A DNA stretch of 64,000 nt from Cenarchaeum sp. (GCA_965242695.1 CBDESU010000001.1:800001-864000), one strand, 5' to 3'; shown: positions 1 through 46,811, counted from the first letter of the stretch. Notes: generated by a model not told the origin, from the sequence alone. Translations and numbers: made by a program.

Positions 1-19
1 AGGATCAGACGCGGCCGCC

Positions 20-796
20 GTGCTGTGGGACGCGGCCGCGGTCGCAATGGTGTGGGCGGCATCCATACGCGACCATGCGGCATGGATGGAAGTCAGGGGG
101 GCGTGGGCTACCATGGCAGAGGCTGTCGATGCAATGAGGACCGGAGCCGAGGAGTGCGGGCGGGCAGTAGATGCGCAGGGCATGGTGGACGCGGTCGCAC
201 TCGGCCGGGCCGGCGAGTCGCTCGGCCGGGCCGGCGCAATGATCGAGCGGGCCGCCGATGCGTTCGGCAGGTCGTCCGAACTGTGCGAGGCCGTTGGAGC
301 AAGGCAGAAGCGCGCAGGCGAGGCGCACGCGCGGGCGTCGAACATGGAGAACAGCGCGGATGCGTGCAGGATGGCGGCAATGTCGTACGAGCGCGCCGAC
401 TCGACGGCCAAGATGGTGGCCAAGGTGCGCGCCATTGCGGGAGGGCTGGCGAGGGAGGCCGGGGACATGGCGGCGGAGGCCGCAAGCGAGCATGAGGGGT
501 CTGGGCGCCGGATGCGGCGCGGCGAACGGAGCGGGCTGGCCGCCGTCCAGGCCGACATGTGGGAGGACACCAAGGACATGCGGGCAAACTCGGCCGAGAT
601 GCTCCGGCAGTCGTCGGAGGCCGTGAAGGTGGCGGCGCGGATTCGGGCGGTGGCTGGAATGGCGGCCGAGCGGCTGGCGGGAAGGGCGGCCATGGCATGC
701 AGGGACGGCGCCGCCGACGCGCAAGAGGCCGCTGCGGCATGGAGGGGTGCAGTGGCCGATGCCAACAGGGCGGATGCAGAGGGGGGAGGGAGGTAG
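20..796 (+). CDS. Ala/Trp-rich helical protein, family H subtype A (true start probably upstream of the window)
   Basis: Colinear with 894..1739 (VLWxAAAxAMxW, GMVD, LAAVQADMWED, AAxAWR); homology continues to the window edge. Confidence 0.7.
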   Translation: MLWDAAAVAMVWAASIRDHAAWMEVRGAWATMAEAVDAMRTGAEECGRAVDAQGMVDAVALGRAGESLGRAGAMIERAADAFGRSSELCEAVGARQKRAGEAHARASNMENSADACRMAAMSYERADSTAKMVAKVRAIAGGLAREAGDMAAEAASEHEGSGRRMRRGERSGLAAVQADMWEDTKDMRANSAEMLRQSSEAVKVAARIRAVAGMAAERLAGRAAMACRDGAADAQEAAAAWRGAVADANRADAEGGGR

Positions 797-859
797 CGGC
801 CTCGCCGCGGCCGCGCCCGTGGACTGCACGCGTGCCATGCGCAGCCGGGCATCCGATAG

Positions 860-871
860 AACGGCATAAAG
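860..871 (+). promoter_or_regulatory. Family H promoter (BRE/TATA-like AACGGCATAAAG)
   Basis: Same 12-mer at about 2279, 17217, 43536 and 44414, and a variant at 13905, each starting 34-37 nt before a start codon. Confidence 0.7.
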
Positions 872-893
872 GCGGCCCGGCGTGCCGCGCGGC

Positions 894-1739
894 ATGGGCG
901 GCGCGAGACCGGATGCGGAGGCGGCCAGCGTCCTGTGGACCGCGGCCGCCGATGCAATGCTATGGACGGCAATGATACGCGAGCACGCATCCTGGACGGA
1001 GCTCAAGGGGGCGTGGGCTGCAAAGTCCGAGGCCGTCGACGCCATGAAGGCCGGCTCTGAGGAGTGCGGCAGTGCCGTCGATGCGCAGGGCGTGGTCGAC
1101 GTCGGCGCGCTCGGCCGGGCCGCCGAGGCCCTGAGGCATGCCGCAGCCACGGCGGGCCGGGCCGCCAAGTCGTTCGACAGGGCGTCCGTTCTCTGCAAGG
1201 CGGCGGGAACAGAACTGAGGCGGGCCGGCGATGCGTACGCGCGGGCGCTCGACAGGGTGCGCGCCGCGGACATGCACGGCATGGCCGCAATGTCGCACGA
1301 CCGCGCCGTCGAGACGGACAGGATGGCGTCAAACGCGCGCGGCATTGCGGCGGGCCTTGCTCACGAGGCCGACGGGATGGCGGCGCTGGCGGCCGGATGG
1401 GCGGGTGCGGGGCAGCGGCGGTGGAGCGGCGACCGCGGCGGACTGGCGGCAGTGCAGGCCGACATGTGGGAGGACGCCAAGGAGATGCGCGCAGGCGCGG
1501 AAGAGATGAAGAGGAGCGCGCAAGAGGCCGAGCGGCTGGCGGTCAAGGTGCGTGGTGTGGCGGCAGGGGCGGCCGAGCGGTCTGCTGCAAGGGCTGCCGC
1601 CGCGGCGCGCGATGGACTTGCCGGACCTGACGCGCCAGAGGCCGCAGAGGCGTGGAGGAAGGCCATGTCCGAGGCCCATGCGGCCGATGACCAGGCCGCC
1701 GGGCGGACGAAGGAGGAGGAGGAGGAGGGGGAAGCGTAG
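894..1739 (+). CDS. Ala/Trp-rich helical protein, family H subtype A
   Basis: ATG 894 follows AACGGCATAAAG at 860-871; paralogue of 20..796 and 44451; acidic tail EEEEEGEA. Confidence 0.75.
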   Translation: MGGARPDAEAASVLWTAAADAMLWTAMIREHASWTELKGAWAAKSEAVDAMKAGSEECGSAVDAQGVVDVGALGRAAEALRHAAATAGRAAKSFDRASVLCKAAGTELRRAGDAYARALDRVRAADMHGMAAMSHDRAVETDRMASNARGIAAGLAHEADGMAALAAGWAGAGQRRWSGDRGGLAAVQADMWEDAKEMRAGAEEMKRSAQEAERLAVKVRGVAAGAAERSAARAAAAARDGLAGPDAPEAAEAWRKAMSEAHAADDQAAGRTKEEEEEGEA

Positions 1740-1789
1740 CGGATGCGGGCTGCGATGGCGGCGGGGGCGGCGGCGGCGCGGCCGGCCGC

Positions 1790-2131: not shown

Positions 2132-2313
2132 GCCTTCACACCGTCGACTACCACGCGTCCATAGGCAGGGCGCATAAAAAAACGGCCGAGGGACTGTGCG
2201 CAATCCGGATCGGCCGCCGATGCCGCCCCGGATTCGACAATCGGGCGCACTGGGGCGATGCGGACGCGCGCCGCACCGAACGGCATAAAGGCGGGCGCGC
2301 GAGGCGCAGCGGC

Positions 2314-3138
2314 GTGGAGAGTAGCGGCCGGAACGAGCACAAGGCGGAGGACGTATGGGCCGCGGCCGGAATGGAGCACGCAAGGGCCGCGGCCATGCAC
2401 CAGTGCGCCACGCTCGATGCCTGCCGCCACTCGTGGGCGGCAAGGGTGGACGGCGGCGGCGCGCTGGGGGATGCGGCCGGCGCAAACGGCAGGATCGTGG
2501 GCGGGGAGGGCAACACGGTCAGCAGGAGCGCGATAGCCGAGACCGGCGCGGCGATGCAGCGGGCCGTGGACGCGCTGGACAGGGCCGCCGTAGAGTTCGG
2601 CCTGGCGGCCAGGCTGTCCGGCATGTCCGCCGACGGGTGGCGCATGGCCGAGAATGCCTTTGCCCGCGCTGGGAACGGCGAGTGGAGGCGGATTGCGCGC
2701 GGGCGATCGAGCGAGGCCCGAAAGATGGCAAAGACGCTCAACACATGGGCGGAAAGGTCGCGCTCGGCGGCCGGCACGCTCGGGCAGTCGGCGCGCGGGT
2801 GGGTGGACGACACGGCCGACTGGGAGGATGGCGCCGAGATGGAAGGCGGCGCAGGCAGGTGGATGGAAAGGCAGGGCCAACTGCAGGCCGTTGCCGACAG
2901 GGAGCGGGGGCATGCGGAGGAGATGGCGCGGGAGACGAACGGGGCCGCGCGGGTGGCCGCCGAAGACCTGGCGCGGATCGCGATCGAGGCCGGGCGTCGC
3001 ACGGCCAGTGTGGAGTGGGCGGATGCGGCTGCGCGCGCCGAGGATAGAGGCCGTGCCGGAACGGGCGCGCTGCGCGAGGCCGCGGACGCGCTCAAGGATG
3101 CGATGGATGCGGCCCGGCAGGCCGAAAGGGGCCGGTAG
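2314..3138 (+). CDS. Ala/Trp-rich helical protein, family H subtype B1
   Basis: GTG 2314 after the AACGGCATAAAG box; closely colinear with 17251..18060 (DVWAAAGMEHARAAA). Confidence 0.75.
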   Translation: MESSGRNEHKAEDVWAAAGMEHARAAAMHQCATLDACRHSWAARVDGGGALGDAAGANGRIVGGEGNTVSRSAIAETGAAMQRAVDALDRAAVEFGLAARLSGMSADGWRMAENAFARAGNGEWRRIARGRSSEARKMAKTLNTWAERSRSAAGTLGQSARGWVDDTADWEDGAEMEGGAGRWMERQGQLQAVADRERGHAEEMARETNGAARVAAEDLARIAIEAGRRTASVEWADAAARAEDRGRAGTGALREAADALKDAMDAARQAERGR

Positions 3139-3154
3139 GCGGGGGCGATTTGGC

Positions 3155-3964
3155 GTGGGCAGGGGCGACGGCAGGACGGAGGGCGGCGACGGCGAGGACG
3201 ACGTGGCGGACGTGTGGGGCGCGGCCGGAATGGAGCATGCAAGGGCCGCGTCTGCCCGCCAGTGCGCGGCCATCGATGCGTGCCGGCTTGCATGGGAGGC
3301 GGAGGCCGAGTCGGGCAGCGCGCTGCGCGAGCTGGTGGGCGCAAACGACGAGATTGTCGCCGGCCCAGGCGGGAGCATACGCAGGGGGCCGATCGCGGAT
3401 GCGGCCGCCGCGCTGCGGCGTACCATAGATGCGATCGAGCGGGCCGCCGTAGAGTTCAGCCAGGCCTCAAAGCTGTCCGATGCTGCGGCGGACGGATGGG
3501 AGCGGGCCGCCAAGGCGCTTGGCACGGCGGGGCTGGCCGACAGGGCCGGCGCCGCGCGCTCGCGCGCCGGCGAGGCGCGCGAGATGGCGCGCGGAATGGA
3601 CGGGCATGCGAAGCGGTCCCGCGCGTCGGCCGCAACGTTCGGGCAGGCGGCGGACAAGTGGGTGGCGAACTCGGCCGAATGGGAGGACGGGGACGTGGTG
3701 GCCAGCGGCACCGACGGCTGGAAGGAAAGGCGCGGCGGGGCGCTGGATATAGCGGAAGGCAGGCGGAAAATGGCCGAGGAGATGGAGGAGCGCACGCGGA
3801 ACGCGGCGCGGATGGCCGAGGAAGAGTCTGCGCAGCTGAACGCCAATGCGGAGGTGCTCACGGCCGCGGCAGTTGCCTGGCTGGAGGGGCGGGACGAGCC
3901 GGAGGCGAAGGCGGCGCTCAAGGAGGGGATGGCGGCGGCCGTGCGGGCCGCGCGGGACAGGTAG
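3155..3964 (+). CDS. Ala/Trp-rich helical protein, family H subtype B2
   Basis: Colinear with 18068..18880 (VWxAAGMExARAASARQCAAIDAC); start inferred by comparison. Confidence 0.72.
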   Translation: MGRGDGRTEGGDGEDDVADVWGAAGMEHARAASARQCAAIDACRLAWEAEAESGSALRELVGANDEIVAGPGGSIRRGPIADAAAALRRTIDAIERAAVEFSQASKLSDAAADGWERAAKALGTAGLADRAGAARSRAGEAREMARGMDGHAKRSRASAATFGQAADKWVANSAEWEDGDVVASGTDGWKERRGGALDIAEGRRKMAEEMEERTRNAARMAEEESAQLNANAEVLTAAAVAWLEGRDEPEAKAALKEGMAAAVRAARDR

Positions 3965-4209: not shown

Positions 4210-4672
4210 ATGGCCGCGGGCGGCCGTATGGCCTCGTTCGCCGCCGTCGTGCCGCCGGTGGATGCCGCATCCCTTGCGGCCCAGGCCGAGGTCGCCGAGT
4301 GCCTGGCTGTCGAGGCAAGCGGCTGGCAGGCGCGTGGGCGCCAGACGTGGGCAGTCGCGCGGGCACGCGCCGCCAGCGTACGTGGTCGGACTGGAGCGCA
4401 TGATCGCGGCCGGGACGGACAGCGCGCATGCGATGGATGCCTGGGCGGATGCCGTCGGGCAGGCGGCGGCCGTCGGGCAGGCGGCGGCCGGCGAGGCGGT
4501 ACTCGGGGACGCGGAGCGCACCATGGCGGATGCAAGGGCGGCCGCACACGAGGCCATTGCATCGATTCAGGCCGGGCAGCGCGTCGTGGCGACCGACCGG
4601 CAGGTCCCGAGCATTGCCACGGGGAGCAGGCTGGCCCCCGTGCTGTCCGGCGAGGGGACGGAGTGCTATTGA
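4210..4672 (+). pseudogene. Frameshifted Ala-rich hypothetical gene
   Basis: Protein-like sequence switches from the 4210 frame to the 4262 frame near 4360. Confidence 0.3.
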
Positions 4673-5077: not shown

Positions 5078-5800
5078 ATGTGGTTGACACCCGAAGACGC
5101 CGCGCCGAGGCAGTTTGGACTCTACGTTGAGACCGTGCTGGACGACCGGGAAACATGCCACGCGATCAGGGATGTCGACAGACCTGCTCGCCGAGTACGG
5201 CGAGGTCGGCGTCGACCCCGGGTTCAAGCCGGCCAAGTACAGGGTAGCAAGGCCGACTGCTACGGGGCGCAGGGATGAGGCCTACACGGTAAACGTGTAC
5301 CCGTCGGGCAAGGTCGTGTGCCGGGGGGCAAAGTCTGTCGAGAGGGCCCGCACGGACGTGAGGATGGTTCTGCATAGGCTCGGCGTGCCGGAGGGGGGAA
5401 CCACGGCGATGCGGAGGGGGCCGCAGCCGTGCGGTACGTGGTGATGTCGGGATGCATCTTTGGCGAATGACGTGCACAGGGCCATACCAAAGCTCAGGGA
5501 GAGGTACGAGGTGACGCTCGACTCGGAGGTGTTCTCGGGGTATGTGGGGTCGAGGGGTTTGGAGGGGAAGAGGATGGAGGCGTCTCCGTCCAGGTATTCG
5601 CGCCTGATATGGGCGATGCGGATACGGCGTGCGAAGGCGGAAGGATGCCGCTGCTGTGCAGGGGGCCGACCGTGCGGGAGGTGAGCAGGGTCGTCGGCGA
5701 CATGTACAGGGCGATTGTACAGTCCGACCGCAGGCCGGGCGGGGAGGGAGCCGGTGATGCGGCGGACCGCAGGGACGACATGCGGCCGCCGAGCGTATAA
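5078..5800 (+). pseudogene. Divergent TATA-binding-protein (TBP)-like gene with several frameshifts
   Basis: VNVYPSGKVVCRGAKSVERA resembles TBP LIFxSGKxVCxGAKS; a second repeat (YVVMSG...LDSEVFSG...LLCRGPTVREVSRVV) is spread over different frames. Confidence 0.55.
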
Positions 5801-5824: not shown

Positions 5825-6712
5825 ATGGCGGGCGGACCGCAGGCGCGGCCCGACAGTAGCAGCAGGAGGAAGAGCATGGCGGACGACAATGCGGCAATGT
5901 ACGCGTACGCGGCGGCCGTAAAGTCACTGTCGCGCCTGGTCGAGAGGTCGGAAGTAGCCGTGGATGCATGGTCGACACTGGCCAAGTCGACGTTCGACAC
6001 CGGCCTGCGCAAGGCCGCCAACGCCGCATCGGAAAGCAGCGCCGAGCGAAAGGGGGCCTGCGAGACCCTGCTGGAAGGGTGCCGGCTTGACGGCGATGGC
6101 CTGTACGAGGTGTTTCCGGGCATGTGGACCGGCGAGATTGCCGCGGGGGCCGAGGGCATGGCAGCCCTGGCCAGCCGCGCAGCGGCCAGGTGGTCTGCGA
6201 GGGGCGCGCTGCTCTCGGCGTCGACCGAGCCGCCCGTGCTCGCAGAGATGTCGGTCTCGAAGGCCTGGCGGGGGTTTGCCAAAAAGGTGGCGGCCGCGGA
6301 GAGGGCGGCGGAGGGAACCGAACTCGAGGCAAGGCCGGTCGACGAGCTGGCGGCCGCGGCGGCGCGCGGGGCAGAGCGCTTGGCGCGGGCGAGGGGTCCA
6401 TTTAGCGTAGAGGAGGTTGACGCCGCTGCCGGCGTGGACGGCCATGGGGGCGGTACGGGCGGGTTGGCTGATGTGGTTGCGGCGACGGCAGGGAGGCGGG
6501 CGGCCGCTGATGCGAGGGATCGTGCGGCAAGGGAGGCGGCGGAGTCGAAGGCGTTGTTGCGGGACGCTGTAGACGTGTGGATGGAGGCGTCTGCGGAATG
6601 GGCAAGGGCGCGCGACAGGGCCGCGAGAGAGGGCGACAAGGAGGTCGCCAGCATGGCGGATGAGCAGGCCGCATACGCCGGCAAGAATGCCGCTCGCCTG
6701 CGGACTGCCTAG
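5825..6712 (+). CDS. Ala-rich helical protein, family D
   Basis: TATAAG at about 5796; shares AAxKSLxRLV, CxLD, PGxW, AGAEGMAALA and ARLRTA with 6783 and 26366. Confidence 0.72.
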   Translation: MAGGPQARPDSSSRRKSMADDNAAMYAYAAAVKSLSRLVERSEVAVDAWSTLAKSTFDTGLRKAANAASESSAERKGACETLLEGCRLDGDGLYEVFPGMWTGEIAAGAEGMAALASRAAARWSARGALLSASTEPPVLAEMSVSKAWRGFAKKVAAAERAAEGTELEARPVDELAAAAARGAERLARARGPFSVEEVDAAAGVDGHGGGTGGLADVVAATAGRRAAADARDRAAREAAESKALLRDAVDVWMEASAEWARARDRAAREGDKEVASMADEQAAYAGKNAARLRTA

Positions 6713-6782
6713 CATCGCTCCGCGTCCAGGCCGGCCGCCATACGCCGCGAGCGATTAAAAATCGCAGTGCGGGCGGCCATGT

Positions 6783-7661
6783 ATGGCTGGAAGGACGTCG
6801 GCGGGGCGGCGCGGGCGCCGGCAGCAGAGGAAGAGGCCGGCACACGACAGGGCGGTGGCTAGGCACAGCGCGGCCGCAAAGTCGCTGATCCGCCTGGTCA
6901 GGATGGCTAGAACCGCCGCATCCATGTGGTCGCACATGGACGAGCTTGCGATTGACGAGGCAGGCCGCGAGGCGGCGGTAAAAATGTCGACGGGCAGCGC
7001 AGACCGCAGGGAGATGGCCGAGGGCCTGCTGAAGGCGTGTTGCCTTGATGTCACGGGCAGCTACGAGATGGTTCCGGGCGTGTGGCGGGACGATATTGCG
7101 GCGGGGGCCGAGGGCATGGCGGCCCTGGCCAACATGGCCGCGGCGAGGTGGTGCGCGAACGGGGGCATGGCGAGCGCGTCGACGGCGAGCGTTGTGTTTG
7201 CCGAGCTGTCGGCATCGGGCGCATGGACGGACTTTGCCGCAAAGGTGGCCGCCGCCGAGCGCGCGGCGCTCGGAACCGCGCTGGATGCAAGGCCGGTGGC
7301 CGAGCGGGCCGCGGCGGCGGCAAGGCACGCCGAACGATCCGTGCCGACGCTGCCGCGGGAGGAGAGCGTGGGCGGCGGGGCGGCAGCGGCTGTTGGCGCA
7401 ATGGGGACGGGGGCGTCGAGCGGGCGGGCCGCAGAGGCTGGCAGGCGGGCCGCGGCCGCCGTGCGGGATCTATCGGTCGGGGCCGTCGAGAGGGCCGCAA
7501 TGGCGCGGCGCGATGCGGCCGGCGTGTGGGCGGAATCTTCCGCACTGTGGTCGAGGGTGCGCAGGGATGCCGCAAGGGAGGGCGATGCGGCCGCTGAGGC
7601 TCTGGCCAGCGTGCAGGCAAGGACGGCTAAAGAGCATGCGACGCGCCTGAGGACTGCCTAG
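6783..7661 (+). CDS. Ala-rich helical protein, family D
   Basis: ATTAAAAA at about 6754; colinear with 26366..27241. Confidence 0.75.
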   Translation: MAGRTSAGRRGRRQQRKRPAHDRAVARHSAAAKSLIRLVRMARTAASMWSHMDELAIDEAGREAAVKMSTGSADRREMAEGLLKACCLDVTGSYEMVPGVWRDDIAAGAEGMAALANMAAARWCANGGMASASTASVVFAELSASGAWTDFAAKVAAAERAALGTALDARPVAERAAAAARHAERSVPTLPREESVGGGAAAAVGAMGTGASSGRAAEAGRRAAAAVRDLSVGAVERAAMARRDAAGVWAESSALWSRVRRDAAREGDAAAEALASVQARTAKEHATRLRTA

Positions 7662-8064: not shown

Positions 8065-8760
8065 ATGTCGGATCGCGCCACCTGCAGGGTATGCGGACGC
8101 GACTTTGCGCCGTACGGCCGCCGCCGCCGCGTCTACTGCAAGAAGTGCGCCGCAAAGGCCGACAAGGCGATCGTCCTGGACCCGGTCGTGAAATGCAGGG
8201 AATGCGGCCGCAAGTTTTCCGCGCCCAGCCGATCGTTCCGCCACTGCTCCGATGCCTGCCGCGCAGAAGGCGCGCGGCGCTACAACCGCGAGTACATGCG
8301 CAGGTACCTGACCGACCCCCAGAAGCGCGCCACGGCCCTGGCGCGCAACAGGGCATCGGCGGCGGCGCGCGCGGCCCGCAAGAGGGGCGGGAGGCCGCCG
8401 CAGAAGCAGGCGCTGCCCCGCGCGGACCCGAACGCCGAGCCGTCCGTGTGCGGGCTGTGCGGCCGCACGTTCGTGCAGTACGGCCGCGGCGTCCACGCCC
8501 ACTGCAAGCGGTGCACGGCCAGGGCCGATCGGGAGGTCGACAAGCCGCCGCACACAAAGTGCAAGGAATGCGGCAAGGCGCTCACCACGACCAGCCGCCG
8601 AGTCCGCTACTGCTCAAAGGCGTGCAGCGCCGAGGGCCTGCGGCGCAGCCGCCGCGAGAGCAGGCGCAGGATCAAGGCCGATCCGGAGAAGGGCGCCCTG
8701 GCGGCGGCGCACAGGCGGGCGCGGAATGCCGCCCGCGGGGGCAAGGATGCGGGAGGGTGA
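8065..8760 (+). CDS. Basic tandem zinc-finger protein, family Z
   Basis: Two units of CxxC..CxxC plus CxxC..CSxxC; GCCAGCCTTATA at 8029-8040. Confidence 0.8.
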   Translation: MSDRATCRVCGRDFAPYGRRRRVYCKKCAAKADKAIVLDPVVKCRECGRKFSAPSRSFRHCSDACRAEGARRYNREYMRRYLTDPQKRATALARNRASAAARAARKRGGRPPQKQALPRADPNAEPSVCGLCGRTFVQYGRGVHAHCKRCTARADREVDKPPHTKCKECGKALTTTSRRVRYCSKACSAEGLRRSRRESRRRIKADPEKGALAAAHRRARNAARGGKDAGG

Positions 8761-8861: not shown

Positions 8862-9330
8862 ATGCGCCCAAGCTGGGAGGAGGCTGGAGATGAGCGTCAT
8901 GGGTGCGATCAGCACCAGTCTCCACTGCGCGTCGCAACTGCTCAGGCCGTACTTGGATGCCCAGAGGGCCGTCGAGTCGCGCGGCGGCTGCGTGGAACGG
9001 CCGGACGAGGCCAAGAGCCTCCTGGCAGTGCTCAACCCGTTGAGCTACCACCTCAGGGGCAAGACCTACTTTGCCCTGGGCGTCAACGGCGAGGAAATGT
9101 CCGAGTTTCTGCGCCTCCGCACCGCGAAGGCTGGCCGGACGTAAGAGAAGGCATACTGTCCATCGAGGCCAGGCTCGGGGATGGCGCGGGCGGCCGGGCT
9201 GTGCTATCCGGCGAGGACCTGTCGATCCTCGGCGGCGTATCCGATGCCCTTGACAGCGTGTGCGCGTCCCTGTTCAGCGAGATGCGCGGGCGATGCGCTC
9301 CCGCTGCGTGGGATGCGCTATCCGCGAGCG
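8862..9330 (+). pseudogene. Frameshifted hypothetical gene between Z copies
   Basis: MSVMGAISTSLH...EFLRLR continues in another frame as EGWPDVREGILSIEARL...SLFSEMRG. Confidence 0.4.
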
Positions 9331-9436: not shown

Positions 9437-10135
9437 ATGCCGGGGCCCGCCGCATGCCTGCTGTGCGGGCGCATCTTTGAGCGGCATGGACGCGGCGGCC
9501 TGCGCGCGTACTGCAAGCGGTGCACCGCCAGGGCCGACAGGGAGATCGCCGTGAGGCCTGTCGTGCAATGCGGGGAGTGCGGCAGCGAGTTTTCCGCGCC
9601 CCGCCGATCGTTCCGCTACTGCTCCGATGCCTGCCGCACCGAGGCCGCGCGCCGCCGCAACCTCGAGCACCAGCGCAAGTACATGGCCGACCCCGAGAAG
9701 CGCGCCATAACCGCGGCGCGGGCGAGGGCCGCAGCGGCGGCCCGCGCGGCCCGCAAGGGGGGAGGGGGGCCGCCGCCGCGGCGGCGGCCGCCTCGCGCGG
9801 ACTCGAGCGCCGAGCCGTCCGTATGCCGGCTGTGCGGGCGCAGCTTTGGGCAGCACGGCCGCGGCCTGCGCGCGTACTGCAAGCGGTGCACCGCCAGGGC
9901 CGACAGGGAGGCGGGCAGGACGCTGCGCGCAAAGTGCAAGGAGTGCGGCAAGGCGTTTTCCACTGCCCGCCGCTCCGTACGCTACTGCTCGGACGGGTGC
10001 AGCGCCGAGGGCCTGCGGCGCAGCTACCGCGAGAGCAAGCGCAGGATCAAGGCCGATCCGGAAAAGCGCGCCCTGGCCGCGGCGCAGGGGAGGGCATGGA
10101 GCGCGGCCCACAGGGGCAGGAAGGCGGGAGGGTGA
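9437..10135 (+). CDS. Basic tandem zinc-finger protein, family Z
   Basis: 16 conserved Cys, RYCSDxC, DPEKRA; conserved promoter. Confidence 0.8.
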   Translation: MPGPAACLLCGRIFERHGRGGLRAYCKRCTARADREIAVRPVVQCGECGSEFSAPRRSFRYCSDACRTEAARRRNLEHQRKYMADPEKRAITAARARAAAAARAARKGGGGPPPRRRPPRADSSAEPSVCRLCGRSFGQHGRGLRAYCKRCTARADREAGRTLRAKCKECGKAFSTARRSVRYCSDGCSAEGLRRSYRESKRRIKADPEKRALAAAQGRAWSAAHRGRKAGG

Positions 10136-10229: not shown

Positions 10230-10931
10230 ATGGGGGAGCGGATCGCATGCAAGATGTGCGGGCGCGGCTTTGAGCAGTACGGCAGCGGCCGCCGCGCCTT
10301 CTGCAGGGAGTGCACGGCCAGGGCCGACAGGGAGATCGCCGCAAGGCCCGCCGTGAAGTGCAGGGAGTGCGGCAGCGAGTTTTCCGCGCCCAGCCGATCG
10401 TTCCGCTACTGCTCCGATGCCTGCCGCACCGAGTTTGTGCGGCGCTACAACCGCGAGTACCAGCGCAGGTACCTGGCCGATCCCGAGAAGCGCGCCGTGG
10501 CACTGGCGCGCACAAGGGCATCGGCCGCGGCCCGCGCGGCCCGCAAGAGGGGCGGGAGGCCGCCGCGGCCGCTGCCGCCGCAGCGGCCGGTGCGCGCGGA
10601 CCCGAGCGCCGAGCCGTCAGTGTGCGGGCTGTGCGGGAGCGGCTTTGCGCCGTACGGACATACCCACCACGCCTACTGCAAGAAATGCACCGCCAGGGCC
10701 GATCGGGAGATCGCCAGGACGCTGCGCGCAGACTGCAAGGCGTGCGGCAGGGCGTTTTCCGCGACCAACCGCAACGTCCGCTACTGCTCAGCGGCCTGCC
10801 GCGCAGACGGCGTGCGGCGCAGCCACCTCGAGAGCAGGCGCAGGATCGAGTCCGATCCCGAAAAGAGCGCCCTGGCGGCGGCGCAGAGGAGGGCATGCAG
10901 CGCCGCCCGCAGGGGCGATGCGGGCAGGTGA
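10230..10931 (+). CDS. Basic tandem zinc-finger protein, family Z
   Basis: Same architecture; promoter at about 10194-10205. Confidence 0.8.
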   Translation: MGERIACKMCGRGFEQYGSGRRAFCRECTARADREIAARPAVKCRECGSEFSAPSRSFRYCSDACRTEFVRRYNREYQRRYLADPEKRAVALARTRASAAARAARKRGGRPPRPLPPQRPVRADPSAEPSVCGLCGSGFAPYGHTHHAYCKKCTARADREIARTLRADCKACGRAFSATNRNVRYCSAACRADGVRRSHLESRRRIESDPEKSALAAAQRRACSAARRGDAGR

Positions 10932-11009
10932 TGCGGCATCGCCCGTTCCCCGCGCGCGTCCCGGGGCCGGCCCGCCGGCCCTGCCGCCCGCAATTCCAAG
11001 AGGGGCGCG

Positions 11010-11726
11010 GCGGCGGCCGGGCGGACCGAGTGCCTGCTGTGCGGCCGCGCCCTTGCGCGGCGGGGCCGCGGCGGCGGCCGCCCGCACTGCAGGGAGTGCG
11101 CGGCCAGGGACGGCAAAAAGGCCTCCCGGACGCCGCGCATTGACTGCAAGGAGTGCGGCAAGGGGTTTGCCGCGGCCAGCCGCCTCGTCCGCTACTGCTC
11201 GGACGAGTGCCGCGCCGCCAGCGTGCGCCGATACAATCGGGAATACCAGCGCAGGTACCTGGCCGACCCGGAGAAGCGCGCCCTGGCCACGGCGCGCAAC
11301 AGGGCATCGGCCGCGGCCCGCGCGGCCCGCAAGAGGGGCGGGAGGCCGCCGCTGCCGCTGCCGCCGCGGCGCGCGGACCCGAACGCCGAGCCGTCCACAT
11401 GCAGGCTGTGCGGGAGCGGCTTTGCGCCGTACGGCCATACCCACCACGCCTACTGCAGGCGGTGCGCGGCCAAGGCCGATCGGGAGATCGCCAGGACGCT
11501 GCGCGCAAGATGCAAGGCGTGCGGCGGCAGGTTTTCCACGTCCAACCGCCTCGTCCGCTACTGCTCGGACGAGTGCCGCGCCGAGGGCCTGCGGCGCAGC
11601 CGCATCAAGAGCGCCCTCAAGCGCATGGCCGGCCCAGGGAAGCGCGCCGTCGAGGCGGCGCAGGCGAGGGAGCGGCGCGCCGCCAGCAGGCCAAAGAGGC
11701 GTGGCGGCGCGGCCCGCGCCGCCTGA
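11010..11726 (+). pseudogene. Family Z copy with intact frame but no ATG or TATA box
   Basis: All four fingers are open; the ATG position reads GCG and the promoter reads GCCGGCCCTGCC. Confidence 0.6.
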
Positions 11727-12083: not shown

Positions 12084-12656
12084 TCACGGTTCGGCCGTAT
12101 TGGCCGGCAGGGGGCGGGCGTCGGCCCTGATCTTGTCCTGTATATCAATATAGAACACGTCATCCTCGCCATTGCCAGCTGGTATGTACCTGAAGCCAAG
12201 GTTGCGATAGAATCGCATGGTGTCGGGATCGTCGAGGGGGTTGAGCATGACGATACGGCATCCGATCCTCTCCGACAGGCGCATCGCCTCTTCGATCGAC
12301 CACAGCAAAAGCCTGGTGGCCACCCCCTGCCGCTCGTGGTCCTTGTCCGTGGCAAGGTAGCCGACGAGGAGTGCGGGGATGTTGCCGTAGCCCATCCCCT
12401 GCAGGGCAGGGTCGCGGCCGGGGCGCAGGTGCGCCGCCGCGACAGAGATGTAGCCGAGCGTGGCCCCCTCGTCGCCAATATACCGCCATGTTCGGTTCAG
12501 GCCCTCTTCCATGTCACTATAGGAAGTGACCCTGTAGTAGTCGTTGAACTCGGGATTTCGGCAATTAAAGTTTGGGTCGGGATCAGTGCCGGCGCGCACC
12601 AGAGAAATCTCGGGACTCTTTCGCTGCTCGCCTGCGGCGCCTTTCAACCTCTTCAT
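12084..12656 (-). CDS. GNAT acetyltransferase toxin (TacT/AtaT-like)
   Basis: FNCRNPEFNDY, IPALLVGYLATD, RQGVATRLL, IGCRIVML, RFYRNLGF. Confidence 0.8.
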   Translation of the reverse strand: MKRLKGAAGEQRKSPEISLVRAGTDPDPNFNCRNPEFNDYYRVTSYSDMEEGLNRTWRYIGDEGATLGYISVAAAHLRPGRDPALQGMGYGNIPALLVGYLATDKDHERQGVATRLLLWSIEEAMRLSERIGCRIVMLNPLDDPDTMRFYRNLGFRYIPAGNGEDDVFYIDIQDKIRADARPLPANTAEP

Positions 12657-12915: not shown

Positions 12916-13614
12916 ATGTCGGGGCCGGCTGCCGTATGCATCCTATGCGGCGCAAGCTTTGCGCCGTACGGCCGCGGCGCCCGCACTTTTTGCAGGCGGT
13001 GCGCGGCAAGGGCCGACAGGGAGGCCGGCAGGGCGCTGCACATGGACTGCAAGGCGTGCGGCAAGAGGTTTTCAGCGCCGCGCCGATCCGCCCGCTACTG
13101 CTCGGACGAGTGCCGCGCCGAGGGCGCGCGCCGCCGCAACCGCGAGCACCAGCGCAAGTACGTGGCCGACCCCGAGAAGCGCGCCATAACGGCGGCGCGA
13201 AACAGGGCCATCGCGGCGGCCCGCAGGGCCCGCGACAGGGGCGGGAGGCCGCCGCAGCGGCAGGCGCCGCCGCGAGCGGACCCTGACGCCGAGCCGTCCG
13301 TATGCAGGCTGTGCGGGCGCACATTTGCGCAGTACGGCCGCAGTAACCGGCACGCCTACTGCAGGCGGTGCACGGCAAGGGCCGACAGGGAGGTGGGCAG
13401 GACGTTGCGCTCAAAGTGCGCGGGGTGCGGCGGCAGGTTTTCCACGACCAGCCTCGCCGTGCGCTACTGCTCGGACGAGTGCCGCGCAGACGGCGCGCTG
13501 CGCAGCCAGCGCAAGAGCGATCTCAGGCTCAAGGCCGATCCCGGGAGGCGCGCCCTCGCGGAGGCGCAGAAAAGGGCGCTGAGGACCGCCCGCATGGGCG
13601 GGGAGGAGCGGTGA
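12916..13614 (+). CDS. Basic tandem zinc-finger protein, family Z
   Basis: Same architecture; GCCAGTCTTATA at about 12880. Confidence 0.8.
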   Translation: MSGPAAVCILCGASFAPYGRGARTFCRRCAARADREAGRALHMDCKACGKRFSAPRRSARYCSDECRAEGARRRNREHQRKYVADPEKRAITAARNRAIAAARRARDRGGRPPQRQAPPRADPDAEPSVCRLCGRTFAQYGRSNRHAYCRRCTARADREVGRTLRSKCAGCGGRFSTTSLAVRYCSDECRADGALRSQRKSDLRLKADPGRRALAEAQKRALRTARMGGEER

Positions 13615-19225: not shown

Positions 19226-19477
19226 ATGGGCAAGCGCATTGCAGCCGCCACTGCCGCGGGCGTCGTAGTCGGAACGCTTCTCATCCCACATGTCGCCGAT
19301 TTTGTCGAGCCCATGCCGGCGGTTGCCGATTGCGGCCTCGTAGACGATGCCAAATAGCGTGATACTTGCATCCGCGATAGAACGGTTATGCGCACGCTCA
19401 TCATTGTTATGGTTCCGACATTGACGGCCGGGATCTTTGCATCCTACTTTGTCGCACATGCAAAACGATCGCCGTGA
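19226..19477 (+). pseudogene. Paralogue of the 4733 membrane protein with an internal TAG
   Basis: MGKRIAAA...ADCGLVDDAK*RDTC...LIIVMVPTLTAGIFAS; TAG at 19355 aligns with Trp in the paralogue. Confidence 0.65.
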
Positions 19478-37261: not shown

Positions 37262-37352
37262 ATGGCAGAGCCTGCCTCCTGCAAGCTGTGCGGCCGCGCC
37301 CTTGCACTGCCCGCCCCGTCGCTCGTACTGCGGGCAGTGCAGGGCCAGGGCC
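37262..37352 (+). pseudogene. Truncated family Z copy (forward)
   Basis: GCCAGTCTTATA promoter; MAEPASCKLCGR..., then YCGQCRARA after a frameshift. Confidence 0.6.
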
Positions 37353-37594
37353 CTGCGCTGGTACTCGCGGTTGTAGCGCCGTGTAGACTCGGCGCGGCAC
37401 TCTTTTGAGCAGTAGCGGGCGATCCTGCTCATCGTGGTGAACCTCTTGCCGCACTCCTTGCACCTTGCGCGCAGCTTTTCGGCGATCGCCCTGTCGGCCT
37501 TGGCGGTGCACCGCTTGCAGTAGATGCGGCGCTCGTCGCGCCCGCGCTGCCCAAGGCTGCGCCCGCACAGGCTGCAGGCGGTCCGGCCCGCCAT
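37353..37594 (-). pseudogene. Truncated family Z copy (reverse)
   Basis: Promoter at 37619-37630; MAGRTACSLCG...RYCSKEC...NREYQR ends at the junction. Confidence 0.65.
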
Positions 37595-37861
37595 CGCCCC
37601 GTGCCCTGAATTGCGGGCTATAAGGCTGGCGGGAGCCGCAGCGCCGGCGCGTGCGCCCCGCCGGATCGGTCCGGACTCGGCATGCCTGCACGGGATCGAC
37701 TCGTCGCGCACGGCGCCTTCCCGGGCCGTCCCTCCGCACGCGCGCGCCGGATGCGGGCGGGCGCGGCGCCGCGCATGCCGGAGCCCGTCCCGGGCGCGTG
37801 CGGCAGCGCGGCGGCCGGGCGTCCGCAGCCGCCCGGGCCGCCAGCGGGGGAGCCAGCCCCC

Positions 37862-41726: not shown

Positions 41727-41728
41727 AG

Positions 41729-43569: not shown

Positions 43570-44380
43570 ATGGGCGCGGCCGGCGGACCGGATGCCGGAT
43601 CGGCGGCTGCGCGCGTGTGGGCCGCGGCGGCCGCTGCAAGGGCGTGGACCGCCGCCGTGTACAACCTGGCCGCATGGGGATCGTACCGGCAGGGATGGGA
43701 TGCCATGGCCGAGTCGGCGGCGGCCGGCCGCAACGCGGCCGCTGCCTGCGGCGAGGCCGTGGGAAGGGACGGCCGGATGGACAGTGCGGCCCTTGAGAAT
43801 ACGGCGTCTACGCTCAAGGCCGCGGCGCGGGCGCAGCGGCGCGCAGGGGCCGCGTTTAGGGCGGCGGCCGCGCACGCGAGGTCGTCGGCGGCCGGGCAAA
43901 AGCGGGCGGCGGCGGCCGCGTATGCGATGGCGAACGGCTCGTAGGGCCGGCGAGCGTTCCGCGGGCGGGCCGCGCAGGCGCGCAGGATGGCGCGGGCGGC
44001 GGGCAGGCGGGCCGAAGGCGGACACTGACGCGAAGACGACCCGAACGGCGTCGCGCATGTGGAAGAAAAACGCGGCCCGGTGGGCGGACGGGGGCGCATG
44101 GCCGGGCGGCAGGGCCGCATGGGCCGACAGACGGGCCGCGATACGCGCCGACGCCGAGCGCGATCGCGCAATGTGGTCGGGCAAGGCGGAAGGTGCGAAC
44201 AGTACGGCACGGGCGGCGGCCGGCGGCATGCGGCAGTGCGCGGACGCGGCCGCAAGCGCCGCCGATGCGGCGGGGCTGCCCGGCGCGGCTCCGCCCGGCG
44301 CGCAAGGGGCCGCGGCGGCGTGGGAGGAGGCCATGGAGTCGGCCTGGCGCGCGGCCGCCGCGTGCCGGCCCGCCGAGCGA
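43570..44380 (+). pseudogene. Family H subtype C paralogue, disrupted
   Basis: Homology to 13939 continues past TAG 43942 and a frameshift near 44015 (GGAWPGGRAAW...AWEEAME). Confidence 0.65.
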
Positions 44381-44450
44381 TTGGAACAGGGCGGCCCGGC
44401 GCGCGGCGGATGGAACGGCATAAAGGCGCCGCGCGGCGGCGCCGCGGCGG

Positions 44451-45300
44451 ATGGGGGCGGAACCGGCCGATGCGGCCGTGCTGTGGGAGGCGGCCGCCGA
44501 TGCCATGTCGTGGACGGCGGCCATGCGCGCTCACGACTCGCTGGCGGAGTGCCGGAAGGGATGGGCGGCAAGGGTCGAGTTCGGCGATGCGATGAAGGGG
44601 GCCGCGGAGAAGTGCGGGCGGATCGTCGACGGACGGGGGATGGTGGACACCGCCTCGATCGGGCTGGCGGGGGATGCGATGAGGAGGGCCGCGGACCCGC
44701 TGGTGCGGGCGTCCAGGGCGTTTGCGCGGTCGTCCCGGCTCGACAAGGCGGCGGGGGCCGAGCTGGACCGGGCGTCCAGGGCGTACGGGCGGGCGGAGGA
44801 CCCGGAATACGCCGCGGCCGTGGCCGAGCGGGCCGCCCGCTCGCGCGCGCGACCATGCGCTGTCTTCGGCGGGGATGGCGAAGACCTCGCTGGACAGGGC
44901 CGAGTCGCTCGTGCGCGATGCGGCAAAGCTGGCGGCCGCCGCCGCGGCCAAGCAGCCGCCGCCCGGGCCCGCTCGGCGGTCGGACCTCGCCGAGATGTCG
45001 TCGCCGCAGGCCGACATGTGGGAGGGCGCAAAGCAGGATCGCCTAGAGTCTGTGGTAGCGCTCGGCAGGATGGACGAGGCCGTGCAGGCGACGGCGCGGA
45101 TACGGCAGCTTACGGCAAGGGCGGCCGAGATGTCGGCGGCGCGGGCGGCCGCGGCGGCGGCGCGGGGGCGGGGCAGTCCGGACGTGGAAAGGGCGGCCGC
45201 GGCGTGGAGGAGGGCCGTGGCAAAGGCGCACGGCGTGGAGGACAGATCGCGGCGGCGGGATGCGAATCGGGCCGCACAGGCAGGCCCGCCAGTCTTATAA
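44451..45300 (+). pseudogene. Family H subtype A paralogue, frameshifted at a (CG)n run near 44843
   Basis: N-half VLWEAAADAMSW; C-half QADMWE...AAAAWRRA in another frame. Confidence 0.65.
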
Positions 45301-45323
45301 CGCGCCGCGGGTTGCGCGGCGCG

Positions 45324-46022
45324 ATGTCGGGGCAGGCTGCCGCCTGCAGGATGTGCGGCGCGGGCTTTGCGCGGTACGGCCGCGGCGCCGGCGCCCTCTG
45401 CAAGCGGTGCGCGGCAAAGGCCGGCAGGGAGGCGGGCAGGGCGCTGCGCGCAAGCTGCAAGGCGTGCGGCAAGGGGTTTGCCGCGTCCACCCGCTCCGCC
45501 CGCTACTGCTCGGCCGAGTGCCGCGCAGACGGCGCGCGCCGCCGCAACCGCGAGCACCAGCGCAAGTACATGGCAGACCCGGCGAGGCGCGCCCTGGCCA
45601 TGGCGCGAATGAGGGTCGCCGCGGCGGCCCGCGCGACCCGCGAGAGGGGCGGGAGGCCGCCGCGGCGGCAGGCGCCTCCCCGCGTGGACCCGAACGCCGC
45701 GCCGTCCGTGTGCAGGCTGTGCGGGCGCGGCTTTGCGCAGTACGGCGGCAGCAACCGGCACGCCTACTGCAGGCGGTGCACGGCAAAGGCCGACAGGGAG
45801 ATGGGCAGGACGCTGCGCGCAAGCTGCAAGGCGTGCGGCAAGAAGTTCTCGACGGCCAGCCGCGCCGTGCGCTACTGCTCGGCCGAGTGCCGCGCCGAGG
45901 GCCTGCGGAGCAGCCGCCGGGGAAGCGACAGGAGGCTCAAGACCGATACGAAGAAGCGCGCCACGGCGGGGGCCCGAAAGGGGGCGCGCAGCGCCGCCCG
46001 CAGGGGCGGGGCGGGCCGGTGA
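45324..46022 (+). CDS. Basic tandem zinc-finger protein, family Z
   Basis: Same architecture; promoter at about 45288-45299. Confidence 0.8.
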   Translation: MSGQAAACRMCGAGFARYGRGAGALCKRCAAKAGREAGRALRASCKACGKGFAASTRSARYCSAECRADGARRRNREHQRKYMADPARRALAMARMRVAAAARATRERGGRPPRRQAPPRVDPNAAPSVCRLCGRGFAQYGGSNRHAYCRRCTAKADREMGRTLRASCKACGKKFSTASRAVRYCSAECRAEGLRSSRRGSDRRLKTDTKKRATAGARKGARSAARRGGAGR

Positions 46023-46112
46023 CGCGGGCGGCGCATGCGGGCCGCCCCCTCCGCCGGCGCGCGCACCGGCCGGCCCGCCAGCCTTATATCTGCATATTCG
46101 ATGCGCGGCGCG

Positions 46113-46811
46113 ATGGCCGGCCCGACCGCATGCCGTACGTGCGGGCGCGGCCTCGAGCGGCACGGCGGCCGCAGCCGCGCCTTCTGCAAGGAGTGCGCGG
46201 CAAGGGCCGACAGGGAGATCGCCAGGAAGCCGCGCGTCAAGTGCAAGGAGTGCGGCAAGAGGTTTACCGCTGCGAGCAGGATCGTCCGTTACTGCTCGAG
46301 GGGGTGCCGCGCCGAGTTCGCGCGCCGCTACAACCGCGAGTACCAGCGAAAGCTGCTGGCCGACCCGGAAAAGCGAGCCATAATCCTGGCGCGCACAAGG
46401 GCATCGGCCGCGGCGCGAAGGGCGCGAAAGAGGGGCGGGAGGCCGCCGCAGCAGCAGCCGCCGATGCGCGTGGACCCGAACGCCGAGCCGTCCGTGTGCA
46501 GGCTGTGCGGGCGCAGCTTTGCGCAGTACGGGCGCACCAACCGCCACGTCTACTGCAGGCAGTGCACCGCAAGGGCCGACAGGGAGATCGCCAGGAATCT
46601 GCGCGTAAGGTGCAAGGAGTGCGGCAAGGCGTTCACCACGACCAAGCGCTCGGTCCGCTACTGCTCGGACGAGTGCAGCGCCGAGGGCGTTCGGCGCAGC
46701 CGCCGCAGGAGCAACGCTAGGCGCACGACCGACCCAGAGAGGCACGCCGCCAGGGCGGCGTACATGAGGGCGCGCAGCGCCGCCCGCGGGGGCAGGGAAC
46801 CGGGAGGATGA
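46113..46811 (+). CDS. Basic tandem zinc-finger protein, family Z
   Basis: Same architecture; promoter at about 46077-46088. Confidence 0.8.
   Translation: MAGPTACRTCGRGLERHGGRSRAFCKECAARADREIARKPRVKCKECGKRFTAASRIVRYCSRGCRAEFARRYNREYQRKLLADPEKRAIILARTRASAAARRARKRGGRPPQQQPPMRVDPNAEPSVCRLCGRSFAQYGRTNRHVYCRQCTARADREIARNLRVRCKECGKAFTTTKRSVRYCSDECSAEGVRRSRRRSNARRTTDPERHAARAAYMRARSAARGGREPGG

What the first reader, a model, noticed from the sequence alone, without database searches (positions are those of the whole stretch)
1..46811. Recurring multi-gene module: helical paralogues, TBP-like gene and zinc-finger arrays
Seen: the order H-family genes, small 2-TM gene, TBP-like gene, D-family gene(s), Z-finger genes occurs at 0-13.6 kb and again at 17.2-28.5 kb. 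H plus Z genes recur at 43.5-46.8 kb, almost all on the + strand. Copies are clearly diverged, yet most frames and promoters are intact. I recognise none of H, D or Z as a named family. Inference: a lineage-specific expanded system, such as a diversified DNA-binding/regulatory or effector repertoire, or the remains of a repeatedly integrated element. This is the best candidate for an undescribed system here.
Basis: partly seen in the sequence, partly recalled or inferred. Interest (0 to 1): 0.85.

Follow-up and report, generated by a model that had tools for sequence, protein, structure and literature searches.

The report
Orphan gene families in symbiont island
A sponge-dwelling ammonia-oxidising archaeon carries, in an insertion hot spot between two core genes, arrays of three uncharacterised gene families (helical proteins and very basic zinc-ribbon proteins) that look functional but do not form a fixed multi-gene system.

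Summary
The window (G000:C1:800001-864000; 3.9-Mb, 68% G+C archaeon with amoA, held by sponge metagenomes) contains three paralogue families. H is Ala-rich, soluble and about 270 aa. D is about 290 aa. Z is about 235 aa, net charge +31 to +47, with two repeats of eight invariant cysteines. There is also a 2-TM gene and a 90-aa single-repeat TBP-like gene. The 'recurring module' is one diverged segmental duplication (76-80% DNA identity). Its second copy is decaying: the 2-TM and TBP-like copies carry stops, and a TPR gene and an IS66 transposase are inserted. At 43.6-45.3 kb the H copies are frameshifted. D and the TBP-like gene exist only here. H and Z were found only in this genome and one congener, where Z expanded independently. 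The region fills a hot spot between two core genes that are 205 bp apart in a 2.0-Mb congener. All three families are under purifying selection (omega 0.28-0.39) and have family-specific TATA promoters. None matches a characterised family. Z resembles a non-catalytic zinc-ribbon module of phage 'HNH endonuclease' proteins and probably binds nucleic acid. Structure, complex and expression tests were unavailable.

The parts
1..796 (+). H1a, Ala-rich helical paralogue (gene starts 14 nt before the window, at G000 C1 799987)
   Evidence: 51% aa identity to H1b; CGGCATAAAG 23 nt before its start
894..1739 (+). H1b
   Evidence: own TATA element 23 nt upstream
2314..3138 (+). H2a, first gene of the H2a-H2b pair
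   Evidence: 74% aa identity to 17251-18060; TATA 24 nt upstream
3155..3964 (+). H2b, 16 nt behind H2a with no TATA of its own (probably co-transcribed)
   Evidence: 71% aa identity to 18068-18880
4382..4672 (+). small ORF (96 aa), uncertain gene, unique in the genome
4733..4987 (+). 2-TM protein, 84 aa
   Evidence: hydropathy peaks at residues 1-19 and 58-76; no Pfam family
5172..5444 (+). single-repeat TBP-like protein, 90 aa
   Evidence: PF00352 27.0 bits (cut-off 22.9), residues 28-69 on profile positions 39-81 of 85; shares the SGK-VC-GAKS motif with both repeats of the genome's two canonical TBPs
5609..5800 (+). small ORF (63 aa), uncertain gene, with a counterpart at 26124-26219
5825..6712 (+). 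D1
   Evidence: own TATA (cgtATAAgaa)
6783..7661 (+). D2
   Evidence: 66% aa identity to D3
8065..8760 (+). Z1 (start corrected to 25 nt after the CCAGCCTTATA element)
8890..9144 (+). short copy of a 13-member small-ORF family (S84), function unknown
9437..10135 (+). Z2 (start corrected)
10230..10931 (+). Z3 (start corrected)
10932..11726 (+). Z3b: full-length Z reading frame in frame behind the Z3 stop codon, with TATA box and start codon lost
12084..12656 (-). GNAT acetyltransferase inserted within the Z array
12916..13614 (+). Z4
13939..14739 (+). H3
17251..18060 (+). H2a' (duplicate of H2a)
18068..18880 (+). H2b' (duplicate of H2b)
19289..19444 (+). remnant of the 2-TM gene with an in-frame stop
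   Evidence: tblastn 35% identity over 52 residues, stop inside
20326..22083 (+). TPR protein with 7.5 near-identical 102-bp repeats, inserted in the duplicate
22375..24993 (-). IS66-family transposase, inserted in the duplicate
25797..25922 (+). remnant of the TBP-like gene with an in-frame stop
   Evidence: 62% identity over 42 residues, stop inside
26366..27241 (+). D3
27521..28246 (+). Z5
37343..37657 (-). inverted fragment of a Z gene (N-terminal third) with its TATA element, just behind the 2705-aa gene
43570..44381 (+). H3-like copy, frameshifted
   Evidence: matches split over two frames, stops inside
44451..45300 (+). H1-like copy, frameshifted
45324..46022 (+). Z6 (start corrected)
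46113..46811 (+). Z7 (start corrected)
47113..48619 (-). right-hand core anchor of the island (cytidylyltransferase-like gene and EF-Tu-domain-2 gene)

Best explanation
Window 1-46.8 kb is the larger part of a roughly 67-kb lineage-specific flexible island. It fills an insertion hot spot between two core genes of a sponge-associated ammonia-oxidising archaeon. Its cargo is dominated by three orphan multigene families that grow by tandem and segmental duplication and lose copies again (birth and death). The 'recurring module' is one such segmental duplication: an ancestral block H2a-H2b / 2-TM / TBP-like / D / Z was copied once. The copy is now 76-80% identical and partly decayed. The genes are real and selected. 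Each duplication unit carries its own family-specific TATA promoter at a fixed 23-25 nt from the start codon, which implies near-leaderless mRNAs. H, D and Z are not an obligate system, because H and Z arrays also exist on their own and D is confined to this locus. Inferred function: Z proteins are very basic and have two repeats, each with two Cys4 zinc sites followed by an Arg-rich helix. They probably bind nucleic acid, most likely DNA, as a diversified set of regulators or silencers. The zinc ligands and basic helices are fixed while the loops between ligands vary. H and D are soluble all-helical proteins of unknown role. The adjacent, probably co-transcribed H2a/H2b pair may form a heteromer. 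Shown: anatomy, duplication history, distribution, selection and promoters. Inferred: nucleic-acid binding by Z, helical fold and pairing of H and D.
For: Families and coordinates. Segmental duplication: (80% over 2.0 kb, 76% over 0.9 kb). Decay of the copy: two in-frame stops; TPR and IS66 inserted. Unlinked H-only and Z-only arrays. D has 3 copies, all in the window. Distribution: H in 2 of 61 genomes, D in 1 of 61. Z matched in 4 of 61 at E<=0.001, but only G000 (22 places) and G004 (15) are full-length; the other two are about 20-bit matches. Large collections: Z 118 unnamed proteins, H 14, D 8 of 1.84 billion representatives. Hot spot: synteny on both flanks with G004, 67.5 kb against 11.5 kb between the anchors. 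The anchors are 205 bp apart in G001 and about 4.9 kb apart in G002. Z copies group by genome (support 94/90). Selection: omega is 0.29-0.39 for H, 0.28 for D and 0.28-0.31 for Z, against 0.22-0.48 in five other paralogue families of the genome. Third codon positions change most in H and D. Promoters: 17 of 52 genome-wide CGGCATAAA[GT] sites precede called H genes, mostly at 23-24 nt; 10 of 19 Z-motif sites lie at called Z genes and 2 more at Z copies; same elements in G004. Z chemistry: 16 invariant Cys, net charge +31 to +47, match to an internal part of phrog_1271 at E 1.1e-15. H and D: no hydrophobic segment, 58-63% helix-forming residues. The locus is 97-100% identical in contigs of sponge metagenome runs from 4 studies.
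Against: No fold, complex or expression data could be obtained (no RNA holder listed), so every functional statement is inference. Nei-Gojobori dN/dS for some Z pairs is near 1 (0.5-1.05) and Z changes equally at all three codon positions. This could mean diversifying or relaxed selection rather than simple purifying selection. H and Z do co-occur: both are present in G000 and G004, both are missing from the three other congeners, and they are interleaved or adjacent in both genomes. A looser functional link is therefore not excluded. An H2b-like protein and two Z proteins in the metagenome hits share the same longest-contig length, 5121 bp, which hints at adjacency in a third organism. The phrog match is only to a zinc-ribbon part, and its annotation ('HNH endonuclease') is untested.
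Confidence: 0.62

Rival explanations
1. H, D and Z (with the 2-TM and TBP-like genes) are parts of one functional system, for example a defence or regulatory module in which Z recognises nucleic acid and H/D act as partners or effectors.
For: The same order is kept in both copies of the duplication. H and Z are both present in G000 and G004 and both missing from G001-G003. They are interleaved in G004 C2 2295-2340k and adjacent at 2414-2416k. The island also carries restriction-modification genes, a TPR protein next to a weak PIN-domain match (E 0.003, below the cut-off), an IrrE-like peptidase and AAA_14/DUF4143 ATPases.
Against: H-only and Z-only arrays exist. D, the TBP-like gene and the 2-TM gene are absent from G004. 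In the second copy two of the five gene kinds are already pseudogenes while H, D and Z stay intact. None of the 10 proteins scanned matched PADLOC. The shared presence in two sister genomes is a single evolutionary event.
Confidence: 0.15
2. The region is what remains of repeatedly integrated mobile elements or proviruses, and H, D and Z are their cargo genes.
For: The locus is an insertion hot spot. It holds IS66 and IS630 transposases. The Z-type zinc ribbon resembles phage protein families, and a 78-aa viral protein has two such ribbons.
Against: The window has no tRNA gene. No integrase or capsid/terminase family was found among the ORFs scanned. tblastn of Z against 50,697 phage records gave nothing. 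D has no relative in the viral contigs and Z only one at 28% identity. G+C and the TATA promoter architecture are those of the host genome. Copies are spread over about 1.6 Mb of contig C1 in tandem arrays, not as repeated whole elements.
Confidence: 0.1
3. H, D or Z are secreted effectors aimed at the sponge host, for example basic zinc-finger proteins acting in host nuclei.
For: The organism lives in sponges. Its genome is full of TPR proteins (115) and giant surface proteins (105). Sponge-associated Thaumarchaeota are reported to encode eukaryotic-like proteins (PMC7848895, passages read).
Against: No signal-peptide-like or transmembrane segment in H, D or Z (and the sequences). No secretion-system genes were seen next to them.
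Confidence: 0.05
4. The H and D 'genes' are not functional: they are chance ORFs or decaying duplicates in very G+C-rich DNA.
For: At 70% G+C, long ORFs occur in all six frames (369 ORFs of 70 aa or more). H and D are 25-30% alanine. Several copies are broken.
Against: omega is 0.28-0.39. The third codon position changes most in the called frame. A conserved TATA element lies at a fixed distance in two species. Frames are intact in 7 of 9 H, 3 of 3 D and 7 of 8 full-length Z copies in the window.
Confidence: 0.05

Closest known systems
Flexible genomic islands and lineage-specific multigene families of host-associated prokaryotes (general kind; sponge-associated Thaumarchaeota described in PMC7848895, passages read)
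   Same: An insertion hot spot between conserved core genes. The cargo is orphan paralogue arrays, IS elements, restriction-modification genes and TPR proteins, and differs between congeners.
   Different: The H, D and Z families are not mentioned in the passages I read. The word 'zinc' does not occur in PMC7848895. My search for Cenarchaeum / zinc finger / gene family expansion / sponge symbiont listed nothing relevant among the 12 titles shown of 705 papers. Supplementary tables were closed.
Zinc-ribbon module of phage proteins grouped as phrog_1271 ('HNH endonuclease') and small two-ribbon viral proteins
   Same: One Z repeat (residues 6-93) aligns to profile positions 175-259 of 361 at E 1.1e-15. 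A 78-aa viral-contig protein carries two C-x2-C-G-x2-F...YCS-x2-C ribbons like the second ribbon of each Z repeat.
   Different: Z has no HNH domain (no Pfam HNH match). It doubles the unit, adds a first C-x2-C-x14-C-x2-C site and an Arg-rich helix, and is a chromosomal tandem-array family. tblastn against phage genomes found nothing.
TRASH / FCS / YacG-type Cys4 zinc ribbons (definition recalled, not from a call)
   Same: The ligand pattern C-x2-C-x13-C-x3-C with a YCS-x2-C knuckle. There is a weak profile match to the gyrase inhibitor YacG (E 0.29).
   Different: No significant match to any Pfam model of these families. The spacing is shorter than the 19-22 residues I recall for TRASH.
Monopartite TBP-domain proteins of Archaea (halobacterial TbpA and others; PMC3597702, abstract and passages read)
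   Same: A free-standing protein with one TBP repeat that is most similar to the organism's own TBPs.
   Different: In the passages read they were reported from Euryarchaea ('Thaumarchaeota' has 0 occurrences in that paper). Here only the C-terminal half of the repeat is recognisably TBP-like. The gene is unique to this genome and its one duplicate is a pseudogene.
Tandem arrays of rapidly evolving zinc-finger genes in animals (KRAB zinc-finger proteins; analogy recalled)
   Same: Tandem, lineage-specific expansion of multi-zinc-site basic proteins with fixed ligands and variable inter-ligand residues.
   Different: A different fold class: all-Cys ribbons, with no His ligands and no KRAB domain. 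The PDB profile matches to C2H2 fingers rest only on the KCKECGKAF knuckle. No target or repressor function is known.

Membership tests
TATA-binding protein, Pfam PF00352 (for 5172-5444) | Score above the Pfam gathering threshold | tested here: met
   27.0 bits against a cut-off of 22.9, E 4e-6
TATA-binding protein (canonical) | Two tandem TBP repeats in a protein of about 180 aa | tested here: not met
   90 aa with one matched stretch. NCBIfam TBP models score at most 22.6 bits against cut-offs of 181-347. The genome has two canonical TBPs elsewhere.
Monopartite TBP-domain proteins | A single TBP-fold domain standing alone | tested here: inconclusive
   Single domain by sequence.
C2H2 zinc fingers (for Z) | Cys2-His2 ligand set | tested here: not met
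   All 16 conserved ligands are Cys and there is no conserved His. The PDB matches are to the CxxC knuckle only.
Phage HNH endonucleases (phrog_1271) | HNH catalytic motif | tested here: not met
   The match covers only profile positions 175-259 of 361. No HNH family was found in the Pfam scan at E up to 1.
Ecl1 (PF12855) and NinG (PF05766) | Score above the Pfam gathering threshold | tested here: not met
   Ecl1 24.1 bits against 28.3; NinG 21.4 against 25.4
TRASH/FCS/YacG-type zinc ribbon | C-x2-C ... C-x3-C ligand pattern with an FCS/YCS knuckle (definition recalled) | tested here: inconclusive
   The pattern is present in the second ribbon of each repeat. No significant model match. YacG E 0.29.
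Known anti-phage defence systems (PADLOC-DB 2.0) | Match to any of the 5027 models | tested here: not met
   0 families for 10 of 10 proteins scanned (H x3, D x2, Z, TBP-like, 2-TM, two small ORFs) at E up to 0.1
WXG100 / ESX-type helical hairpin proteins (considered for H because of a W-E-D-G motif in H2; lead recalled) | Match to the family model | tested here: not met
   No such Pfam family among the weak hits of 31 of 31 H members at E up to 1. H is about 270 aa, not about 100.
Integrated provirus or integrative element | Integrase, attachment repeats or a tRNA target, virion genes | tested here: not met
   No tRNA in the window. No integrase or virion family among the ORFs scanned. Only IS transposases were found. 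Not every small ORF was scanned.

The most novel reading that the evidence does not exclude
The Z arrays are an archaeal counterpart of fast-evolving zinc-finger gene clusters. On this reading they form a birth-and-death repertoire of sequence-specific DNA (or RNA) binders that recognises and silences invading or selfish DNA in a genome swollen with IS elements and duplications. The H (and D) helical proteins would act as their partners. The repertoire would have expanded independently in two sister species.
Probability: 0.1. Interest if true: 0.75.

Novelty: new member of a known kind. Interest (0 to 1): 0.35.

Why it matters
It documents how a sponge-associated ammonia oxidiser has roughly doubled its genome relative to a 2.0-Mb congener. 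Insertion hot spots between core genes have filled with tandemly duplicating orphan families, giant surface-protein genes, TPR genes, IS elements and restriction systems. H (about 30 copies), Z (about 17) and D (3) are undescribed protein families under selection. They are therefore concrete candidates for symbiosis- or genome-conflict-related functions. The family-specific promoters at fixed spacing give a clean handle for expression studies. As a candidate 'new system' the finding is weaker than it first looked, because the recurring gene order is one duplication event.

Tried and rejected
I retried Z after twenty other calls, as the message allowed.

A complex prediction of H2a with H2b was not available.

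The ESM Atlas did not hold H2b. It gave no usable answer for the stored homologue P0120 and did not hold P0119.

No RNA holder was listed among the sequencing runs, so expression could not be examined. Contigs laid on 1-20 kb are fragmented at the repeats and showed only that the locus exists at 97-100% identity in several runs.

Profile searches against PDB sequences gave only noise for H (best E 0.23) and D (best E 0.13), and knuckle-level matches for Z.

H against D by hhalign gave probability 0.3% and 0.1%. No internal repeat was found in H.

Pfam on all 31 H members gave no recurring family.

Z relatives were not found in the species genome collection. Neither D nor Z relatives were found in JGI metagenome contigs. 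The tool notes that records of the window's own or very near genomes may be left out.

A search for longer, fused Z forms found one 561-aa protein without Pfam domains.

Association of H/Z clusters with giant surface-protein genes: 5 of 12 H clusters, 3 of 7 Z clusters and 8 of 16 combined lie within 2.5 kb of one. The permutation p values are 0.20, 0.28 and 0.04, and such genes cover 18% of the contig. I treat this as not established.

The first codon-model run timed out and the next printed nothing. I repeated it with fixed trees.

In G003 the two anchor genes lie 14 kb apart, but with other core genes between them in a rearranged order. I do not count this as an island.

Supplementary files of the papers were closed. 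Their tables of symbiont-specific orthogroups might mention these families.

Full report
WHAT THE WINDOW IS. The window is G000:C1:800001-864000 of a 3,887,671-bp genome in two contigs, 96% complete. G+C is 68%. The genome has an archaeal amoA gene (394 bits), and its relatives of the same family are mostly 1-2-Mb genomes. The runs that hold this DNA are labelled sponge metagenome or carry coded organism names, and come from four studies. So this is a G+C-rich, sponge-associated ammonia-oxidising archaeon. G+C values of 47-67% have been reported for sponge-associated Thaumarchaeota (PMC7848895, passages read).

GENE CALLS. At this G+C, ORFs abound in all six frames: 369 ORFs of 70 aa or more. 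I therefore called genes with a codon model trained on the genome's own long ORFs.

THE OBSERVATION. All-vs-all BLASTP of the called proteins and alignments confirm three paralogue families.
- H: about 270 aa, 25-30% Ala, pI about 5-7, with subtypes H1, H2a/H2b and H3.
- D: about 290 aa.
- Z: about 235 aa.

Between H2b and D1 lie an 84-aa protein with two hydrophobic segments and a 90-aa protein that matches Pfam TBP above the gathering score (27.0 against 22.9 bits, one repeat only). The 90-aa protein shares the SGK-VC-GAKS-helix motif with both repeats of the genome's two canonical TBPs.

H and D are not detectably related (hhalign probability 0.3% and 0.1%). H has no internal repeat.

THE 'RECURRING MODULE' IS ONE SEGMENTAL DUPLICATION. 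Self-BLASTN aligns 2271-4247 with 17209-19169 (80%), 5469-5710 with 25922-26192 (65%) and 6747-7667 with 26330-27247 (76%).
- In the second copy H2a', H2b', D3 and Z5 are intact.
- The 2-TM copy (19289-19444) and the TBP-like copy (25797-25922) each carry an in-frame stop.
- A TPR gene and an IS66-family transposase have been inserted between them.
- At 43.6-45.3 kb an H3-like and an H1-like copy are split over two frames, followed by two intact Z genes.
- One Z unit (10932-11726) lies in frame directly behind the Z3 stop codon and has lost both the TATA box and the start codon.
- An inverted Z fragment lies at 37343-37657.

ARE THE GENES REAL? Yes.
- In H and D the third codon position of the called frame changes most between paralogues.
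- With a codon model that accounts for the extreme codon bias (GY+F3X4 on fixed trees), omega is 0.29-0.39 for H, 0.28 for D and 0.28-0.31 for Z. Five other paralogue families of the same genome give 0.22-0.48.
- The higher Nei-Gojobori ratios (0.5 for H and D, 0.5-1.05 for Z) probably reflect the G+C-rich third positions. Z does change about equally at all three codon positions, so some relaxation or diversification is likely.
- Each family has its own TATA-type element at a fixed distance. H starts 23-24 nt after CGGCATAAAG. D starts behind cgtATAAAAa-like boxes. Every promoter-bearing Z starts exactly 25 nt after CCAGYCTTATA. This corrected five of my Z start calls.
- H2b and H2b' lack a box and follow H2a and H2a' by 16 and 7 nt, so they are probably co-transcribed.
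- The same elements at the same spacing precede H and Z genes in the congener G004.

DISTRIBUTION. Within the genome (six-frame HMM searches; neighbourhoods):
- H has about 30 copies, all on contig C1. They include H-only arrays at 1037-1049k (8 genes) and 1685-1696k.
- Z has 17 called copies. They include Z-only arrays at 872-881k, singletons at 273k, 942k and 1120k, and two copies on C2.
- D has three copies, all in the window. The TBP-like gene has only its pseudogene copy.

Z is the eighth largest paralogue cluster of a genome that also has 115 TPR proteins and 105 giant surface proteins.

Among 61 related genomes, H occurs in 2 (G000 and G004) and D in 1. Z gave matches in 4, of which only G000 and G004 are full-length; the other two are about 20-bit matches. 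The genus's 2.0-, 3.2- and 1.8-Mb members have none.

In the large protein collections Z has 118 relatives, H 14, and D 8 representative clusters, all unnamed and almost all from metagenome assemblies.

The 11 full-length G004 Z copies used in the tree form one clade (support 94/90) that is sister to one G000 copy. So the arrays expanded separately in each species, or were homogenised within each.

THE LOCUS IS AN INSERTION HOT SPOT. Both flanks are syntenic with G004, in inverted orientation. G000 767-779.6k corresponds to G004 2594.7-2582.6k, and G000 847.1-871.4k corresponds to G004 2571.1-2556.7k. Between the anchors G000 has 67.5 kb and G004 has 11.5 kb, including five Z genes. In the 2.0-Mb congener G001 the anchor genes are 205 bp apart. 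In G002 they are about 4.9 kb apart. In G003 the region is rearranged. A second G000-specific insertion (window 49.3-61.3 kb: a 3315-aa beta-helix protein, a Dam-type methyltransferase and an EcoRV-like nuclease) is missing from G004.

WHAT THE PROTEINS MAY DO. None of H, D or Z reaches the threshold of any Pfam, NCBIfam or PADLOC model.
- Z has two repeats. Each has the ligand pattern C-x2-C-x14-C-x2-C followed by C-x2-C-x13-C-x3-C, then an Arg-rich segment (RRxNREYQRRYxADPEKRA).
- All 16 Cys are conserved in 47 sequences, 12 of them invariant and 4 in at least 90%. The residues between ligands vary most. Net charge is +31 to +47.
- One repeat matches an internal, non-catalytic part of phrog_1271 ('HNH endonuclease') at E 1.1e-15, and several PHROGs of unknown function. 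A 78-aa viral-contig protein has two ribbons of the second type.
- No fusion to a catalytic domain was found.

I infer nucleic-acid binding, most likely DNA. This is inference from composition and from the phage-module resemblance.

H and D have no hydrophobic segment and 58-63% helix-forming residues. I infer soluble helical proteins. Their role is unknown.

VERDICT. The interpretation as a lineage-specific expansion stands. What remains open is a looser H-Z connection:
- the shared presence and absence of H and Z within the genus;
- their interleaving in both genomes;
- a possible shared 5121-bp contig in a third organism.

That connection, and the function of the Z repertoire, are the parts worth following up once folding and expression data can be had.

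Noticed in passing
window 39136-43381: An MmeI-like type IIL restriction-modification gene is split by an IS630-type (DDE_3) transposase gene on the opposite strand. The N-terminal and helicase-spacer domains lie at 39136-40263, the transposase at 40514-41626, and the methyltransferase, target-recognition and C-terminal domains at 41657-43381. The 1113-bp transposase gene occurs in three 100% identical copies in the genome.
   Followed up: partly
window 49302-61260: A 3315-aa beta-helix protein, a Dam-type methyltransferase (59702-60607) and an overlapping, convergent EcoRV-like nuclease (60601-61260) form a 12-kb block. The block is absent from the syntenic position in congener G004.
   Followed up: partly
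whole genome G000, contig C1: 48 genes of the giant surface-protein family (1000 aa or more) cover 18% of contig C1. TPR proteins form a cluster of 115 members. Many other tandem paralogue arrays exist. The genome is about twice the size of its 2.0-Mb congener.
   Followed up: partly
window 10929-11040: Z3 and the following Z unit are in the same frame and separated by a single stop codon. The spacer has lost the TATA box and ATG that the other Z spacers keep. Fused double-Z proteins exist in metagenomes (P0005, 453 aa; P0141, 561 aa).
   Followed up: partly
window 21187-21947 and 22801-23200: The TPR gene holds 7.5 copies of a 102-bp (34-aa) unit at 91% identity. The IS66-family transposase gene holds 57/81-bp tandem repeats.
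   Followed up: no
window 15068-15311 and 16937-17182: 246-bp direct repeats (89% identity) flank about 1.6 kb that contains a remnant of a DUF3800 gene at 15919-16116.
   Followed up: no
G000 C1 881831-883174, 940210-941496, 967369-968706: Members of a 13-copy AAA_14/DUF4143 ATPase family lie within one or two genes of Z or H genes at three places. This may be chance within flexible regions.
   Followed up: no
G000 C1 792690-796901 (locus L033): A gene pair is tandemly repeated just upstream of the window and recurs about 15 times in the genome: a TPR-containing protein of about 470 aa plus a 202-aa protein with a weak PIN-domain match.
   Followed up: no
G000 C1 2204083-2204886 and C2 6252-7055: ORFs with identical scores sit near the end of contig C1 and the start of contig C2. 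This suggests that the two contigs end in the same repeat.
   Followed up: no
G000 C1 77169-78890 and 1039492-1041342: Two H genes encode double-length proteins (573 and 616 aa), each with two H-type units in tandem.
   Followed up: no
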